64,000 nucleotides of DNA, taken from the NCBI RefSeq assembly GCF_013167455.1, contig NZ_CP038328.1. One strand, written 5' to 3'. Numbering within the stretch: the stretch's first letter is position 1; each line of letters opens with the position of its first letter. Positions 24,672-29,314 of this stretch are shown in pieces. The DNA is from Escherichia coli O157:H7. Lineage in GTDB: Bacteria > Pseudomonadota > Gammaproteobacteria > Enterobacterales > Enterobacteriaceae. The position numbers and the translations under genes are program-made. The notes beneath the pieces are model-generated. The model did not search any database and was not told where the DNA came from. It saw nothing but the letters and a program-made list of their open reading frames with translations.

Positions 24672-24892
24672 GCTGCACCTCCGAGATGCTTCATGTTTTT
24701 TCCGGAGCGAAAGGCTATAAGCGGCATACTGACGCGGTAATTACGGCCCAGCGGTTCACAAATCACCTTCTGACATTCACGGTCAACCAGGCTAACACGT
24801 AGAACATGCCCTGCAGGTGTGGTGTACCACTGACCCGGACGAGGACAACGGAAAGTCTGATTGGTAAACCGTTTGAAAATATTCCGGATCAT
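24668..24892 (-). CDS. hypothetical small protein
   Basis: 74-aa ORF translationally coupled (4-nt overlaps) to both neighbours. Confidence 0.4.
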   Translation of the reverse strand: MIRNIFKRFTNQTFRCPRPGQWYTTPAGHVLRVSLVDRECQKVICEPLGRNYRVSMPLIAFRSGKNMKHLGGAA

Positions 24893-26049
24893 TTGCGCCC
24901 CCTTACCTCTGAAGGGTTCAGCGACAAATTTATGAGGCAGGCCAGCGCCGAAGCATCATTAATATAATCATATAAGCTAACAGCCAGCGGAGATTCAGCT
25001 TTTGCCAACATAGGATAAAGCTGCTGCAGCCAGACCTTGTGGATTACCGACAGGTGGGAGTAAAGCACGCTGGCGTTATCTGCGGCATCGCTCAGCGTGG
25101 ATGGCTTTGAAAGCAGTTTTTCCATCTGGTTAAAGGCATTGATGTATGCCTCTTTGAACCGGGCAGCACGTTTACCCGTGAAACCCATAGCAAGAAACGC
25201 AAAACCGTCTCGTGTGATTTGATAGCAAGGGAGCTTGCGTGTACCACCGTTCGGTTGATTTACCGAAATCGATGTCTCCGCAAAATTGCGGGCACAAAAC
25301 TCAGGGGAACAATCCAGAGTGCGGATCTTTTTCAGCACATCGTCGTGACGCTTGGAGAAGAAGTTGGCAACAGCCAAAGAAGTGGTAACGGCCTGGCCGT
25401 TGTCAATGGTGATTTCAGGTTGAGTGAGGGCTTGGATCGTAGCCATGATGGCAGCCTCCGTTGACAGTGAAAAACTTCCACCACCGGAAACGCCAATTTC
25501 ACTGGTGGTGAACTGGACGGGGTTGGCGTAACCGGCGTCAACGGAGACCGGCGCACCTTTCGGTGCCCCCGCCCAGCCCACCATAATCTGGATGTGAGCA
25601 AATGCGGACGATAAAAAAGACGCTGGCGCGTCATACATCGCCGTTGACAATTTCAGGACGCCAATCCCGGCACCCGCTTTATAAGGTGCCTGAACAGTGT
25701 AACGTCCCGGAATTGCAGAATCAATATGCTGGTGGTCCTTCACACTCAACAAAATCACGCCTGAATTTCCACAAAGGACTAAAGCACTCATGCGGGTAGT
25801 CTTTGCGAAGATAGATAACGCGCTGTGTTTCTGGCTCCCAACGAATAACATGAACATAAAGTCCTCTTCCGTCACGAAACCAGCGGTTAAGTTCCTGCAC
25901 AACTCGCCCCCCACAGTCAGGTAAAGTTCTCTGTGGTTACTTACAGCCAGGTGATTTGGTAATCTGCATTCATGCCGTAACAACAAGTGTTCAGCGACGC
26001 TGACCACCAGCTGTTGCGACAAACGGTTATTTGCCGTTAAACTGTTCAT
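24889..26049 (-). CDS. Rha-family phage regulatory protein with unusual N-terminal extension
   Basis: 386-aa ORF; region MATIQALTQPEITIDNGQAVTTSLAVANFFSKRHDDVLKKIRTL…TRDGFAFLAMGFTGKRAARFKEAYINAFNQME is Rha-like; the first ~190 aa are unrecognised and may reflect a later true start. Confidence 0.5.
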   Translation of the reverse strand: MNSLTANNRLSQQLVVSVAEHLLLRHECRLPNHLAVSNHRELYLTVGGELCRNLTAGFVTEEDFMFMLFVGSQKHSALSIFAKTTRMSALVLCGNSGVILLSVKDHQHIDSAIPGRYTVQAPYKAGAGIGVLKLSTAMYDAPASFLSSAFAHIQIMVGWAGAPKGAPVSVDAGYANPVQFTTSEIGVSGGGSFSLSTEAAIMATIQALTQPEITIDNGQAVTTSLAVANFFSKRHDDVLKKIRTLDCSPEFCARNFAETSISVNQPNGGTRKLPCYQITRDGFAFLAMGFTGKRAARFKEAYINAFNQMEKLLSKPSTLSDAADNASVLYSHLSVIHKVWLQQLYPMLAKAESPLAVSLYDYINDASALACLINLSLNPSEVRGRK

Positions 26050-26630
26050 GCGTTAGTTTCTCCACAACCAGAAGCAATCGACGCCACGACGCCCGGAGCT
26101 GCACACTCGCGGGCGTTACTCTTTTCCGGTGCACAAAAAACACGAAATAACAGTGTTAAATGCTCCTGCCACTTCGCCATTACTTGGTAGCTGTTCTCTT
26201 CGATTTGCTCACGCTCAGCCTGGTCAATAACTCCATCAGCAGTTGCCTTGCGTAAGTACTGGGAATGCTTGCCAATCCATTCTATTGACTCCATCAGCCG
26301 CTGATTAATGTCACCATTGTCAATGTCATCAATGACCACCAGCGGCACAAACACCCCATAACTACGACGGGCTATTGCATCTGTTACATGCCTGGTACCA
26401 CTGGCATCCTGTAAAACCATGGCCCACTCAAGTGGAAAAATTTGATCCCCACCGCTACGCAGTCTGTTATGCAATTGATCTTTTGCTGGGGTGATATCAT
26501 CAGATTTATACAAACCAAGAATTTCTGCTGCTTCCTCATAGCCATGAGGTAAATCAGCAATCGTTCTTCGTATTGCTGCCACCAGCCATGCTGGTTGTTT
26601 ATCAACTTTCCATTCAGGTTCTTTACCCAC
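26046..26630 (-). CDS. early-right operon protein (CII position; possibly YdaT-like)
   Basis: 194-aa ORF immediately downstream of cro; no firm motif. Confidence 0.35.
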   Translation of the reverse strand: MGKEPEWKVDKQPAWLVAAIRRTIADLPHGYEEAAEILGLYKSDDITPAKDQLHNRLRSGGDQIFPLEWAMVLQDASGTRHVTDAIARRSYGVFVPLVVIDDIDNGDINQRLMESIEWIGKHSQYLRKATADGVIDQAEREQIEENSYQVMAKWQEHLTLLFRVFCAPEKSNARECAAPGVVASIASGCGETNA

Positions 26631-26657
26631 GGTTAATTCCTCATTTCTGTGGTGTTT

Positions 26658-26855
26658 TTATGCCGCAGCACTGTTAGTCTTTTGATATAAAGACACGTCA
26701 ACTTTCAGTTTCCCGTTAGTAATTTTTTCTAACTGGTACGCTCGGCCTTCAGGAATAATCTCAGGCCACTCTGAAACAGACGGATGCTTAATACCTAGGG
26801 CTTCGGCGGTTTTACAAACTCCGCCGAAATAATTAATCACGTCGGATTTCCGCAT
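26658..26855 (-). CDS. cro: Cro-like repressor
   Basis: 65 aa, divergent from the cI-like gene across an operator-containing 95-bp region. Confidence 0.7.
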   Translation of the reverse strand: MRKSDVINYFGGVCKTAEALGIKHPSVSEWPEIIPEGRAYQLEKITNGKLKVDVSLYQKTNSAAA

Positions 26856-26950
26856 TTCTGTCTCCCGTTAAATTACGTTAAGCAGAAATGTAGGATATCC
26901 AACATACCAATGTCAAGAATCCTACATAGTCATGTGGTAGGATTGCCTAC
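26856..26950. promoter_or_regulatory. OR-like operator/promoter region between cro and cI
   Basis: Three near-palindromic sites built on ATGTAGGAT…ATCCTACAT half-sites (26888-26905, 26919-26942, 26936-26951). Confidence 0.6.
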
Positions 26951-27604
26951 ATGATGAACATGAGTGATCGTATTCGCCAAAGGCGAAAAGAACTGAACCT
27001 GACACAACAAGCACTGGCTGATTTGACTGGTGTGAACCGTGTCACGGTTACTGGATGGGAAAAGGACGACTACCAACCAAATGGAGCCAACCTTCAAGCC
27101 CTAGCCAACGCACTTAAATGCGATCCTCTGTGGCTTGTTAGCGGAAAAGGCTCGCCTGAACCAAAGATAAATCTAAAACCTGAAATATTCGCAGTTAAAA
27201 AAGTCCCCCTCATCTCGTGGGTTCAGGCGGGTTCATGGACAATGACGGAGCCTGGTGTCAGGAAAGAAGATGCTGAAGAGTGGGTTTATACTACCGCCCT
27301 TGTATCAGAAATGGCATTTGCACTACGGGTCCGTGGTGATTCAATGACCAATCCCCTCGGCTCACCATCGATACCAGAAGGTTCTATCGTTATCGTAGAG
27401 CCAGATATTATTGATACAGAGTGTATTAACGGAAAAATCGTTGTTGCCCATATCAATGGTGGGCAAGAAGCGACACTCAAAAAATTTGTTGAGGACTGGC
27501 CGAACAGGTATCTCGTCCCACTAAATCCTAACTATAAAACTATTGAATGCGGTGAGAACTGCAGAATAGTTGGTCTTGTCAAACAAGTAATAATGGATTT
27601 TTGA
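26951..27604 (+). CDS. cI: CI-type repressor (HTH_XRE plus S24 LexA-like peptidase domain)
   Basis: 217 aa; N-terminal HTH (IRQRRKELNLTQQALADLTGVNRVTVTGWE), Ala-Gly cleavage site (VQAGSW), catalytic Ser (VRGDSM) and Lys (ATLKKF). Confidence 0.85.
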   Translation: MMNMSDRIRQRRKELNLTQQALADLTGVNRVTVTGWEKDDYQPNGANLQALANALKCDPLWLVSGKGSPEPKINLKPEIFAVKKVPLISWVQAGSWTMTEPGVRKEDAEEWVYTTALVSEMAFALRVRGDSMTNPLGSPSIPEGSIVIVEPDIIDTECINGKIVVAHINGGQEATLKKFVEDWPNRYLVPLNPNYKTIECGENCRIVGLVKQVIMDF

Positions 27605-27624
27605 CACATCTTCCTCACTATCGC

Positions 27625-27650
27625 AAAACCGGGGTATCCCCGGTTTTTTT
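27625..27650 (+). terminator. intrinsic terminator after cI
   Basis: aaaaccggggtatccccggttttttt. Confidence 0.7.
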
Positions 27651-27659
27651 ATGAGCCTA

Positions 27660-27720
27660 TCTTTTTATGTAGGATAACCAACATAAACTCTTGACACTCA
27701 CATGTTGGATATCCTACATT
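27660..27720 (+). promoter_or_regulatory. OL/pL-like operator-promoter
   Basis: Operator copies atgtaggataaccaacat and catgttggatatcctacat flanking TTGACA (27691-27696) with a -10-like tacatt 18 nt downstream. Confidence 0.5.
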
Positions 27721-28061
27721 TGTTTTTAGAGTTGTGGTGAATGCGCAGGCTGATGCGCGAAAGACATTGCAGCTATTGCGGAAAAGAGCTGTTCGGCGGG
27801 GCAATTAAACGCCCGTGAGAGTCTGAAATAACCGCAAGCCGGAGATCAGCACCGGTCACCACAACAGCCACTGCTTTGGCGGTACCAGTTTGTACACTTG
27901 CTTCCGGCTGGTACCGCTCTTTTTACAAAACAGAGAAGAGCATCACCGGACGACGGGCTCATAACCCAATCCATCCGGGCGGCTGCCACCGCAGGTGTTC
28001 TTCTCTGTTTTGTGGAGAAACCAACCGACCTTGCAGGGTCGATATGATGAGGAGCAACAAA

Positions 28062-28424
28062 ATGGCTAGCGAACGCAGTACTGATGTGCAGGCATTTATC
28101 GGGGAGCTGGACGGCGGCGTATTTGAAACAAAAATCGGCGCAGTTCTCAGTGAAGTCGCTTCCGGTGTGATGAACACGAAAACCAAAGGTAAGGTCTCGC
28201 TCAACCTGGAAATCGAACCGTTTGATGAGAACCGTGTGAAAATCAAACACAAACTCTCATATGTTCGCCCGACTAACCGCGGGAAAATTTCCGAAGAAGA
28301 CACCACCGAAACGCCGATGTATGTCAATCGCGGTGGTCGCCTGACTATTCTGCAGGAAGACCAGGGACAATTACTGACTCTTGCCGGTGAACCTGACGGA
28401 AAACTACGCGCAGCAGGTCATTAA
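28062..28424 (+). CDS. hypothetical early-left protein
   Basis: ATG 28062 preceded by AGGAG; 120 aa MASERSTDVQAFIGELDGGVFETKIGAVLSEVASGVMNTK…. Confidence 0.5.
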   Translation: MASERSTDVQAFIGELDGGVFETKIGAVLSEVASGVMNTKTKGKVSLNLEIEPFDENRVKIKHKLSYVRPTNRGKISEEDTTETPMYVNRGGRLTILQEDQGQLLTLAGEPDGKLRAAGH

Positions 28425-28489
28425 TATCGTTCTTAATTAACTGATTATTTATCTCATCACTGAATATCTTTATATAGTGAGGACTTATT

Positions 28490-29314
28490 ATGTCTCAGAA
28501 CTTAGACGCAACCGCAATTAATCAAATCCATGCCCTTATTTCTGCTCAGGGTGTTAATGAAATTATCAGTAAGATTGGTGCCGATGCTGTGGCATTGCCT
28601 GAGAATTTCCGCATTCATGATCTGGAAAAATTTAATTTAAATCGCTTCCGTTTCCGTGGTGCGCTTTCCACTGCCAGCATCGATGACTTTACCCGTTATT
28701 CTAAAGATCTTGCAGATGAAGGCACCCGCTGCTTTATCGATGCCGATAATATGCGTGCCGTCAGTGTGCTTAACCTGGGTACTATTGATGAACCAGGTCA
28801 CGCAGATAACACCGCCACTCTCAAGCTAAAAAAGACAGCACCGTTTTCTGCTCTGTTGTCTGTTAATGGCGAGCGTAACTCCCAGAAGTCACTGGCAGAA
28901 TGGATTGAAGACTGGGCCGACTACCTTGTGGGCTTTGATGCTAATGGTGACGCTATTCAGGCAACAAAAGCGGCTGCGGCTGTCCGTAAAATCACGATTG
29001 AAGCAAACCAGACCGCTGATTTTGAAGATAATGACTTCAGCGGCAAACGCTCCCTGATGGAGTCTGTCGAAGCGAAGACCAAAGATATTATGCCAGTGGC
29101 ATTTGAATTTAAATGCGTTCCGTTTGAAGGTCTGAAAGAACGTCCATTTAAATTACGCCTCAGCATTATCACTGGCGATCGTCCGGTACTGGTTCTGCGC
29201 ATTATTCAGCTGGAAGCAGTGCAGGAAGAAATGGCTAACGAATTTCGTGATCTGCTTGTTGAGAAATTCAAAGACAGCAAAGTAGAAACCTTTATTGGTA
29301 CTTTCACCGCCTGA
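28490..29314 (+). CDS. DUF2303-like prophage protein (YfdQ-like)
   Basis: 274 aa [21 protein letters not shown]…; size and N-terminus recall YfdQ of CPS-53. Confidence 0.45.

What the first reader, a model, noticed from the sequence alone, without database searches (positions are those of the whole stretch)
26856..27720. Immunity switch with a shared operator palindrome on both sides of cI
The motif ATGTAGGATATCCAACAT and variants occur three times between cro and cI and twice around a TTGACA box downstream of cI, giving OR and OL analogues. The CI-like protein keeps the full LexA-type autocleavage apparatus (Ala-Gly, Ser, Lys), so the prophage is predicted to be SOS-inducible.
Basis: partly seen in the sequence, partly recalled or inferred. 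Interest (0 to 1): 0.3.

Follow-up and report, generated by a model that had tools for sequence, protein, structure and literature searches.

The report
Prophage CI/Cro switch with hypervariable linkers
This is the on/off switch of an E. coli lambdoid prophage: a P22/lambda-type self-cleaving repressor with operator sites on both sides of its gene, ordinary in design but uncharacterised in specificity, with three tiny linker triplets that vary about 100 times more than the DNA around them.

Summary
An 18-bp near-palindrome of 7-4-7 layout (consensus ATGT[A/T]GG-N4-CC[A/T]ACAT) occurs as four strong copies in 64 kb, all beside cI. O1 is at 26888-26905, O3 at 26935-52, OLa at 27667-84 and OLb at 27702-19. 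A fifth, half-site copy (O2, 26910-27) lies between O1 and O3.

O1 and O2 cover a TTGACA-18-TACATT promoter facing cro. OLb covers an identical promoter facing the early-left genes, after the cI terminator. The sites stay fixed in relatives whose repressors are 61-92% identical, while the flanks diverge.

The repressor combines an HTH domain with a Peptidase_S24 domain. Its Ala93-Gly94, Ser131 and Lys177 align with lambda CI A111-G112, S149 and K192. Its N-terminal domain and site layout resemble P22 C2.

It is a new specificity of a textbook system, found in about 139 of 5426 complete E. coli genomes.

One thing remains unexplained. Nine linker bases (26906-08, 26928-30, 27698-700) have nucleotide diversity 0.27, against 0.0025 for the other 1066 bases of the module. 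This replicated in metagenomes. It was absent from the OR regions of both control modules (P22/imm21 and mEp460).

The parts
26658..26855 (-). cro-like gene (65 aa)
   Evidence: Pfam P22_Cro E=7.6e-22. PGAP annotates it as a Cro/CI family regulator.
26046..26630 (-). YmfL-family / CII-like regulator, second gene of the PR operon
   Evidence: Weak Pfam hit to Phage_CP76 (CII), E=1.2e-5, just under the cut-off. PGAP name: YmfL family.
26888..26905 (.). O1 (OR1 analogue), ATGTAGGATATCCAACAT. It covers the spacer and -10 of PR.
   Evidence: Identical in the nine lineages whose repressors are 76-100% identical; mEp390 (61%) differs at 5 of its 18 bases.
26887..26916 (-). PR: -35 TTGACA (26916-26911), 18-nt spacer, -10 TACATT (26892-26887)
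   Evidence: Promoter scan, 10 of 12 matches. The hexamers are conserved in relatives. It mirrors PL in a 40-nt inverted repeat (I1).
26910..26927 (.). O2 (OR2 analogue), ATGTCAAGAATCCTACAT. Only the cI-proximal half is a good half-site; the other half carries the PR -35.
   Evidence: Ranked 5th in the window by a weight matrix that excluded it. Partly conserved in relatives.
26935..26952 (.). O3 (OR3 analogue), TGGTAGGATTGCCTACAT. It overlaps the cI start codon and the putative PRM -10 TAGGAT (26938-26943).
   Evidence: The PRM assignment rests on positional homology with the annotated P22 PRM and is an inference.
26951..27604 (+). cI repressor, 217 aa. HTH at residues 6-62, Ala93-Gly94 (27227-27232), Ser131 (27341-27343), Lys177 (27479-27481).
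   Evidence: Pfam HTH_3 and Peptidase_S24. Alignment to lambda CI and P22 C2.
27625..27653 (+). Intrinsic terminator after cI (10-bp stem, then a run of U)
   Evidence: Folding energy -15.2 kcal/mol, z=-3.6. Every relative has a hairpin of different sequence followed by a T-run at the same place.
27667..27684 (.). OLa, ATGTAGGATAACCAACAT, 6 bp upstream of the PL -35
27691..27720 (+). PL: -35 TTGACA, 18-nt spacer, -10 TACATT
   Evidence: Invariant in relatives.
27702..27719 (.). OLb, ATGTTGGATATCCTACAT (the reverse complement of O1). It covers the PL spacer and -10.
26906..26908 (.). Hypervariable linker triplet 1, in the PR spacer between the -35 and O1
26928..26930 (.). Hypervariable linker triplet 2, between O2 and O3
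27698..27700 (.). Hypervariable linker triplet 3, in the PL spacer between the -35 and OLb
27727..28061 (+). Structured 335-nt PL leader preceding yfdP, containing a terminator-like hairpin at 27878-27925
   Evidence: Minimum free energy -132.6 kcal/mol, z=-5.85. The hairpin folds at -21.2 kcal/mol and is followed by UCUUUUU.

Best explanation
This is the lysis-lysogeny switch of an E. coli lambdoid prophage.

Dimers of a CI repressor recognise 18-bp sites of 7-4-7 layout (ATGT[A/T]GG, four central bases, CC[A/T]ACAT). The repressor has a P22-C2-like HTH domain and a lambda-CI-like S24 domain.

In a lysogen, CI on O1, helped onto the weak O2, shuts PR and so cro, the CII-like gene and the replication and late genes. 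CI on OLb, and on OLa, shuts PL, which lies just past the cI terminator and drives yfdP, yfdQ, yfdR and the genes after them.

cI itself is transcribed from a weak promoter whose -10 (TAGGAT) lies inside O3, giving a leaderless or nearly leaderless mRNA. O3 has a G/C-containing centre and would fill last, which would give negative autoregulation. Cro (P22_Cro family) is expected to use the same sites in the opposite order.

DNA damage activates RecA. RecA stimulates self-cleavage of CI at Ala93-Gly94 by the Ser131/Lys177 dyad, which separates the DNA-binding and oligomerisation domains and derepresses PR and PL.

Shown here: the sites, their statistics and conservation, the promoter and terminator consensus matches, the domain and residue homology, and mitomycin induction of a phage with the same module. 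Inferred: binding, the order of site occupancy, cooperativity, the PRM position and RecA dependence.
For: PR and PL are mirror-image TTGACA-18-TACATT promoters, each covered by an operator, and form a 40-nt inverted repeat.

The phylogenetic footprint is clear. For OR, the invariant columns across ten lineages fall almost only in O1, O2 and O3. For OL, in nine lineages (mEp390 not included), 30 of 43 site and promoter columns are invariant against 1 of 52 outside. mEp390, whose CI is 61% identical but has the same recognition helix, has the same layout.

Domains were identified. Lambda CI aligns at E=7e-25, with VQA|G, GDSMT and LKKF opposite A111-G112, S149 and K192; the K192A structures align at the first Lys. 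All of these residues are invariant against P22 C2 and e14 YmfK.

The P22 C2 N-terminal domain hits at E=4e-14. P22 sites are also 18 bp, with contacted positions 2-7 and 12-17 and a non-contacted centre at 8-11 (PMC4267663). P22 Asn46 is conserved here as Asn44.

The centres of O1, O2 and O3 lie about -53.5, -31.5 and -6.5 from the predicted PRM start. My reading of the P22 record gives -53.5, -30.5 and -5.5.

The cI terminator was folded. Lys8385Vzw carries the same module at 99.7% identity and was induced with mitomycin C. No LexA box lies in or near the immunity region.
Against: No binding, transcript-mapping or cleavage data exist for this repressor.

O2 is only a half-site, and part of its conservation is explained by the PR -35 inside it.

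OLa and OLb are 35 bp apart centre to centre (about 3.3 helical turns), which is not an obvious geometry for pairwise cooperativity.

The PRM assignment rests on homology with P22 and on weak hexamers (AAGAAT / TAGGAT).

Some repressors that carry the S24 motifs cleave poorly. The strain that yielded Lys8385Vzw may hold other prophages that contribute to induction.
Confidence: 0.85

Rival explanations
1. The switch is as described, but induction does not go mainly through RecA-stimulated autocleavage. Instead an antirepressor (for example the Rha/Ash-domain protein at 24889-26049, a KilA-N protein, or a factor from a co-resident prophage) inactivates CI. On this view the S24 motifs serve mainly for dimerisation.
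For: The prophage encodes Rha/Ash and KilA-N proteins. P22 itself uses both routes, as the annotated Ant shows. Mitomycin induction of Lys8385Vzw does not identify the route.
Against: The cleavage site and both catalytic residues are intact and align with lambda CI. The Rha/Ash gene sits inside the CI-repressed PR operon. No LexA box lies near it or near the immunity region; CTGT-N8-ACAG has only two matches in the window, within chance.
Confidence: 0.1
2. OR holds only two true repressor sites, O1 and O3. The middle 'site' is conserved because it carries the PR -35 and the PRM -35, and it does not bind CI.
For: The left half of O2 matches the half-site at 4 of 9 positions. The invariant GTCAAG block is the PR -35. 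Relatives at 76-92% identity have TCTTACCT in place of TCCTACAT.
Against: The right half of O2 is one of only four perfect ATGTAGGAT 9-mers in 64 kb. The site sits 22 and 25 bp from its neighbours; I read the P22 spacings as 23 and 25 bp. Columns outside the -35 (T-C-x-T-A-C-x-T) stay invariant in all ten lineages. Weak middle operators filled by cooperativity are the norm in lambda (established knowledge).
Confidence: 0.2
3. The repeats are not repressor operators. They are a by-product of duplication of one promoter cassette (PR and PL form a 40-nt inverted repeat), or they bind only Cro or another factor.
For: PR and PL are 83% complementary over 40 nt (I1).
Against: O3 and OLa lie outside the duplicated cassette yet keep the palindrome. 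Each site is internally symmetric, as expected for a dimeric HTH protein. The sites persist in lineages where the surrounding cassette sequence has diverged. The layout matches the experimentally mapped operators annotated in the P22 record.
Confidence: 0.04

Closest known systems
Salmonella phage P22 C2 repressor with OR1-3 and OL1-3
   Same: The repressor is 44% identical overall, and its N-terminal domain matches the P22 C2 N-terminal structures at E=4e-14. Both use 18-bp symmetric sites of 7-4-7 layout with an A/T-rich centre (ATTTAAG-ATAT-CTTAAAT in P22, ATGTAGG-ATAT-CCTACAT here). P22 Val33 and Asn46 are conserved. OR3 abuts or overlaps the repressor start codon. OL lies directly downstream of the repressor gene. 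The operator positions relative to PRM agree within 1 bp.
   Different: The half-site differs at positions 3 and 6 (T to G, A to G). The recognition helix is NRVTVTG instead of SNVAISQ. PR sits about 14 bp closer to cro, so O1 covers the spacer and -10 and O2 covers the -35, which is lambda-like. There are only two OL sites, 35 bp apart, with an intrinsic terminator between cI and OL. No N/gene-24 homologue or nut site follows PL; a structured 335-nt leader follows instead.
Phage lambda CI / Cro / OR-OL
   Same: Lambda CI is the best solved-structure match overall (E=7e-25), with the C-terminal domain aligned throughout and A111-G112, S149 and K192 conserved. Both have divergent PR and PRM, a tripartite OR, PR geometry with OR1 over the -10 and OR2 over the -35, and a leaderless cI mRNA (predicted here).
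   Different: The operator sequence is unrelated (17 bp in lambda). The N-terminal domain is closer to P22 C2. There are no rexAB genes, and there are two OL sites rather than three.
Phage mEp390 immunity region (sequenced, not characterised)
   Same: The CI is 61% identical with an identical recognition helix. It has the same five-site layout, with O3 identical and PL TTGACA flanked by two sites.
   Different: The cro and CII genes differ, as do the flanks. Some half-sites read GTAAG/CTTAC instead of GTAGG/CCTAC.
E. coli K-12 e14 element, ymfK-ymfT-ymfL
   Same: Gene order is the same: an S24 repressor, a divergent small Cro-like gene and a YmfL-family gene. A terminator and then a TTGACA promoter with operator repeats follow the repressor.
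   Different: The N-terminal domain is unrelated (27% overall identity, confined to the C-terminal domain), and the operator differs (TGTACC...GGTACA).

Membership tests
Lambdoid CI/C2-type autocleavable immunity repressor (HTH + Peptidase S24) | N-terminal Cro/CI-type helix-turn-helix domain | tested here: met
   Pfam HTH_3 E=1.1e-15, residues 8-62. P22 C2 N-terminal structures match at E=4e-14.
Lambdoid CI/C2-type autocleavable immunity repressor (HTH + Peptidase S24) | C-terminal S24 domain with a Ser/Lys catalytic dyad | tested here: met
   Peptidase_S24 E=3.7e-25. Ser131 and Lys177 align with lambda S149 and K192 and are invariant in alignment A1.
Lambdoid CI/C2-type autocleavable immunity repressor (HTH + Peptidase S24) | Ala-Gly scissile bond in the inter-domain linker | tested here: met
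   SWVQA93-G94SW aligns with lambda SHVQA111-G112MF and is invariant in alignment A1.
Lambdoid CI/C2-type autocleavable immunity repressor (HTH + Peptidase S24) | RecA*-stimulated self-cleavage leading to SOS induction | not testable with these tools
   Indirect only: Lys8385Vzw, with the same module at 99.7% identity, was induced with 0.5 ug/ml mitomycin C (PMC7946995).
Lambdoid bipartite OR/OL genetic switch | Divergent repressor and cro genes separated by multiple copies of one symmetric operator that overlap back-to-back promoters | tested here: met
Lambdoid bipartite OR/OL genetic switch | A second operator cluster on the early-left promoter downstream of the repressor gene | tested here: met
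   OLa and OLb around TTGACA-18-TACATT after the cI terminator.
Lambdoid bipartite OR/OL genetic switch | Sequence-specific binding of the repressor (and Cro) to these sites | not testable with these tools
   Supported only by statistics, dyad symmetry and the phylogenetic footprint.
P22 C2-type operator recognition (18 bp, 7-4-7, indirect readout of the centre) | 18-bp dyad with conserved outer heptamers and a non-conserved, A/T-preferring 4-bp centre | tested here: met
   The centres are ATAT, ATAT, ATAA, ATTG and GAAT, with outer heptamers conserved. The P22 rules are taken from PMC4267663.
P22 C2-type operator recognition (18 bp, 7-4-7, indirect readout of the centre) | Same DNA specificity as P22 C2 (half-site ATTTAAG) | tested here: not met
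   The half-site here is ATGT(A/T)GG, and the recognition helix differs at 5 of 7 positions. This is a different immunity specificity.

The most novel reading that the evidence does not exclude
The three 3-bp linkers that separate the operators from the -35 elements and from each other are a fast-evolving 'rheostat' of the switch. Either they are local mutational hotspots, for example linker DNA between permanently bound repressor dimers or the centres of ACAT-NNN-(C/A)ATGT quasi-palindromes. Or they are targets of recurrent positive selection that retunes PR, PL and PRM strength or operator-edge affinity, and hence the spontaneous-induction set-point, in each host lineage. Either way they change roughly 100 times faster than the rest of an otherwise frozen module.
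Probability: 0.35. Interest if true: 0.6.

Novelty: new member of a known kind. Interest (0 to 1): 0.3.

Why it matters
The module is common: at least 80% of the 1.2-kb query region is covered in 139 of 5426 complete E. coli genomes, including O157:H7, O111:H8 and O103:H11 STEC, and in Stx1- and Stx2c-converting phages. The authors who sequenced one such Stx phage reported that it lacks CI and Cro.

Defining the repressor, its operators and its likely SOS inducibility gives a concrete handle on what controls induction, and with it toxin release and transduction, for this class of prophage. It also adds a new specificity (ATGTAGG against ATTTAAG) to the P22-repressor recognition series used to study direct and indirect readout.

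If the hypervariable linkers reflect tuning or protein-occupancy-linked mutagenesis, they would be a natural experiment on how switch set-points evolve.

Tried and rejected
- **Known RNA families.** An Rfam scan of 26000-29000 at E<=1 gave only two sub-threshold chance hits. No known RNA family explains the region or the PL leader.
- **LexA-controlled antirepressor.** A LexA-box search (CTGT-N8-ACAG) found two matches in 64 kb, at chance level and neither near the switch. No LexA-controlled antirepressor is evident.
- **Prior description.** Literature searches for the motif, the protein accession, mEp390 and hypervariable operator linkers found nothing.
- **Same specificity as e14 YmfK.** Rejected: the N-terminal domain is unrelated and the operator differs.
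- **Gene conversion from diverged homoimmune relatives as the source of linker alleles.** Rejected: none of the linker alleles match those of L065-L082 or mEp390.
- **Linker variability as a general feature of lambdoid OR regions.** Not supported. The P22 and imm21 groups show only singletons in OR. The mEp460 group shows ordinary linked two-haplotype variation, although a single site near the cro start is tri-allelic.
- **Ungapped OR conservation count.** My first count was invalid because of a 1-nt indel between O2 and O3. It was redone with MAFFT.
- **The scanner's terminator calls.** The terminator-like hits are not the real ones. It missed both the cI terminator (loop shorter than 3 nt by its rule) and the leader hairpin (loop longer than 8 nt), which were then shown by folding.

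Full report
**Where this is**

The 1.2-kb region 26600-27800 is 100% identical to a stretch of the E. coli O111:H8 chromosome NZ_CP077585. At least 80% of it is covered in 139 of 5426 complete E. coli genomes. It also occurs at 99.7-99.9% identity in phages vB_EcoM-720R4, SKA5, Lys8385Vzw and three Stx2c-converting phages.

In the annotated copy it lies inside a lambdoid prophage. That prophage has terminase, portal, capsid protease, lysis genes, a Q-like antiterminator and an integrase next to yjjG (window coordinate = L001 coordinate + 6599).

**Anatomy**

- A 65-aa gene on the minus strand (26658-26855) belongs to Pfam P22_Cro (E=7.6e-22). It is followed by a YmfL-family, weakly CII-like gene (26046-26630).
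- On the plus strand, 26951-27604 encodes a 217-aa protein with HTH_3 and Peptidase_S24 domains.
- The 95-bp gap between cro and cI holds three sites: O1 at 26888-26905 (ATGTAGGATATCCAACAT), O2 at 26910-26927 (ATGTCAAGAATCCTACAT) and O3 at 26935-26952 (TGGTAGGATTGCCTACAT). O3 overlaps the cI ATG.
- After cI come a strong hairpin plus U-run (27625-27653, -15.2 kcal/mol, z=-3.6), then OLa (27667-27684), TTGACA (27691-27696) and OLb (27702-27719). OLb is the exact reverse complement of O1.
- The promoter scan finds the same TTGACA-18-TACATT promoter twice. One copy faces cro (26916 to 26887) and the other faces rightwards (27691 to 27720). The two copies lie within a 40-nt inverted repeat (I1).
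- O1 and OLb therefore cover the spacer and -10 of PR and PL respectively. O2 carries the PR -35.

**Is it more than chance?**

The 18-mer with up to 3 mismatches matches only at O1, OLa and OLb, against 0.01 expected. GTWGG-N4-CCWAC matches four times, all here, against 0.18 expected.

O2 is only a half-site. Even so, a weight matrix built without it ranks it fifth of about 128,000 positions, directly after the four training sites. Its good half is one of four perfect ATGTAGGAT 9-mers in the window.

**Comparative test**

IMG/VR yielded 80 loci whose repressors are 76-100% identical. Phage mEp390 has a repressor 61% identical with an identical recognition helix.

In a ten-lineage alignment of OR, the invariant columns are almost exclusively O1, the -35 and half-site of O2, and O3. 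The cro 5' UTR and the inter-site linkers are not conserved.

For OL, nine of these lineages were compared (mEp390 was not included): 30 of 43 site and promoter columns are invariant, against 1 of 52 outside. Every lineage also has a hairpin of different sequence plus a T-run between cI and OLa. This is a clean phylogenetic footprint of five sites, two promoters and a terminator.

**The repressor**

Lambda CI is the best solved-structure match (E=7e-25). SWVQA-GSW aligns with lambda SHVQA111-G112MF, GDSMT with GNS149MT, and LKKF with FK192KL. In the K192A crystal constructs the alanine aligns with the first Lys. Ala93, Gly94, Ser131 and Lys177 are invariant in an alignment with mEp390 CI, P22 C2 and e14 YmfK.

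The N-terminal domain is closest to P22 C2 (E=4e-14). P22 repressor binds 18-bp symmetric sites with contacted positions 2-7 and 12-17 and a non-contacted centre at 8-11, where A/T is preferred and Asn46 and Glu44 act (PMC4267663).

The sites here have the same 7-4-7 layout. The strongest matches (O1, OLb) have ATAT centres, and O3 has ATTG. Asn46 is kept as Asn44, and Val33 as Val31. The recognition helix differs (NRVTVTG against SNVAISQ), which fits a different half-site (ATGTAGG against ATTTAAG).

**Promoter geometry (inference)**

The P22 record annotates PRM with its -10 in the left half of OR3 and a transcript start 4 nt before the c2 ATG. The homologous hexamer here is TAGGAT (26938-26943). 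That predicts a start at about 26949-26951, giving a leaderless or nearly leaderless cI mRNA.

With that start, O1, O2 and O3 are centred at about -53.5, -31.5 and -6.5. My reading of P22 gives -53.5, -30.5 and -5.5. PR, by contrast, is placed as in lambda, with O1 over the spacer and -10 and O2 over the -35.

The AGGA inside O3 lies 8 nt upstream of the ATG. It could serve as a ribosome-binding site for transcripts that come from further upstream.

**SOS inducibility**

However, Stx1 phage Lys8385Vzw carries this module at 99.7% identity and was obtained by induction with 0.5 ug/ml mitomycin C (PMC7946995). That paper states that CI, Cro and CII are absent from Lys8385Vzw, so the switch had not been recognised.

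No LexA box lies near the region, so a LexA-controlled antirepressor is not evident. An antirepressor route cannot be excluded, because Rha/Ash and KilA-N proteins are present.

**Comparison with known systems**

This works like the P22 and lambda switches and meets every sequence-level criterion of that family. It is not the P22 specificity: the half-site and recognition helix differ. It is also unrelated in N-terminal domain and operator to e14 YmfK, which shares only the gene order.

I found no description of this operator or repressor. I therefore file it as a new member, with a new immunity specificity, of a known kind. As a switch it is ordinary.

**An unexpected feature**

I compared 63 loci with a 100% identical CI protein. 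Nine linker positions were all polymorphic: 26906-08, 26928-30 and 27698-700. Five are tri-allelic, at least 14 mutations are required, and there are 26 haplotypes.

By contrast, only 11 of 136 four-fold degenerate sites in cI and cro vary, 11 of 114 other non-coding positions, and 13 of 90 operator positions. Nearly all of those are singletons or rare variants.

The pattern replicated in an independent set of 15 metagenome contigs retrieved through a cI coding 35-mer. Several contigs are identical to the window at all other 1066 positions yet differ at 3-4 of the nine linker bases.

Pooling 73 sequences gives nucleotide diversity 0.27 at the nine positions against 0.0025 elsewhere, a ratio of about 110. 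The modal background (21 sequences) carries 8 linker haplotypes.

Controls built the same way behaved differently. In the P22 and imm21 groups OR shows only singletons, though the imm21 PL region has a few multi-allelic sites, including one in the PL spacer. The mEp460-type module shows ordinary linked two-haplotype variation plus one tri-allelic site near the cro start.

The hot positions were chosen after seeing the data. The replication and the size of the contrast make chance an unlikely explanation. The linker alleles do not match those of diverged relatives, so simple gene conversion from them is unlikely.

I cannot tell whether this is recurrent selection or a local mutational hotspot. 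Selection could act on promoter strength or operator-edge affinity; the common G alleles at 26906 and 26928 extend the sites to ...ACATG. This is the basis of the 'novel case'.

**Other things seen**

PL is followed by a 335-nt leader with no convincing gene. It folds far better than shuffles (-132.6 kcal/mol, z=-5.85) and contains a terminator-like hairpin at 27878-27925. Its first 70 nt recur at 98-100% identity in mEp460, Stx2a phages and P1-family phages, and the region is a mosaic junction.

**Verdict**

The switch is a new specificity of a textbook design, so its interest as a switch is low. The hypervariable linkers raise the interest modestly.

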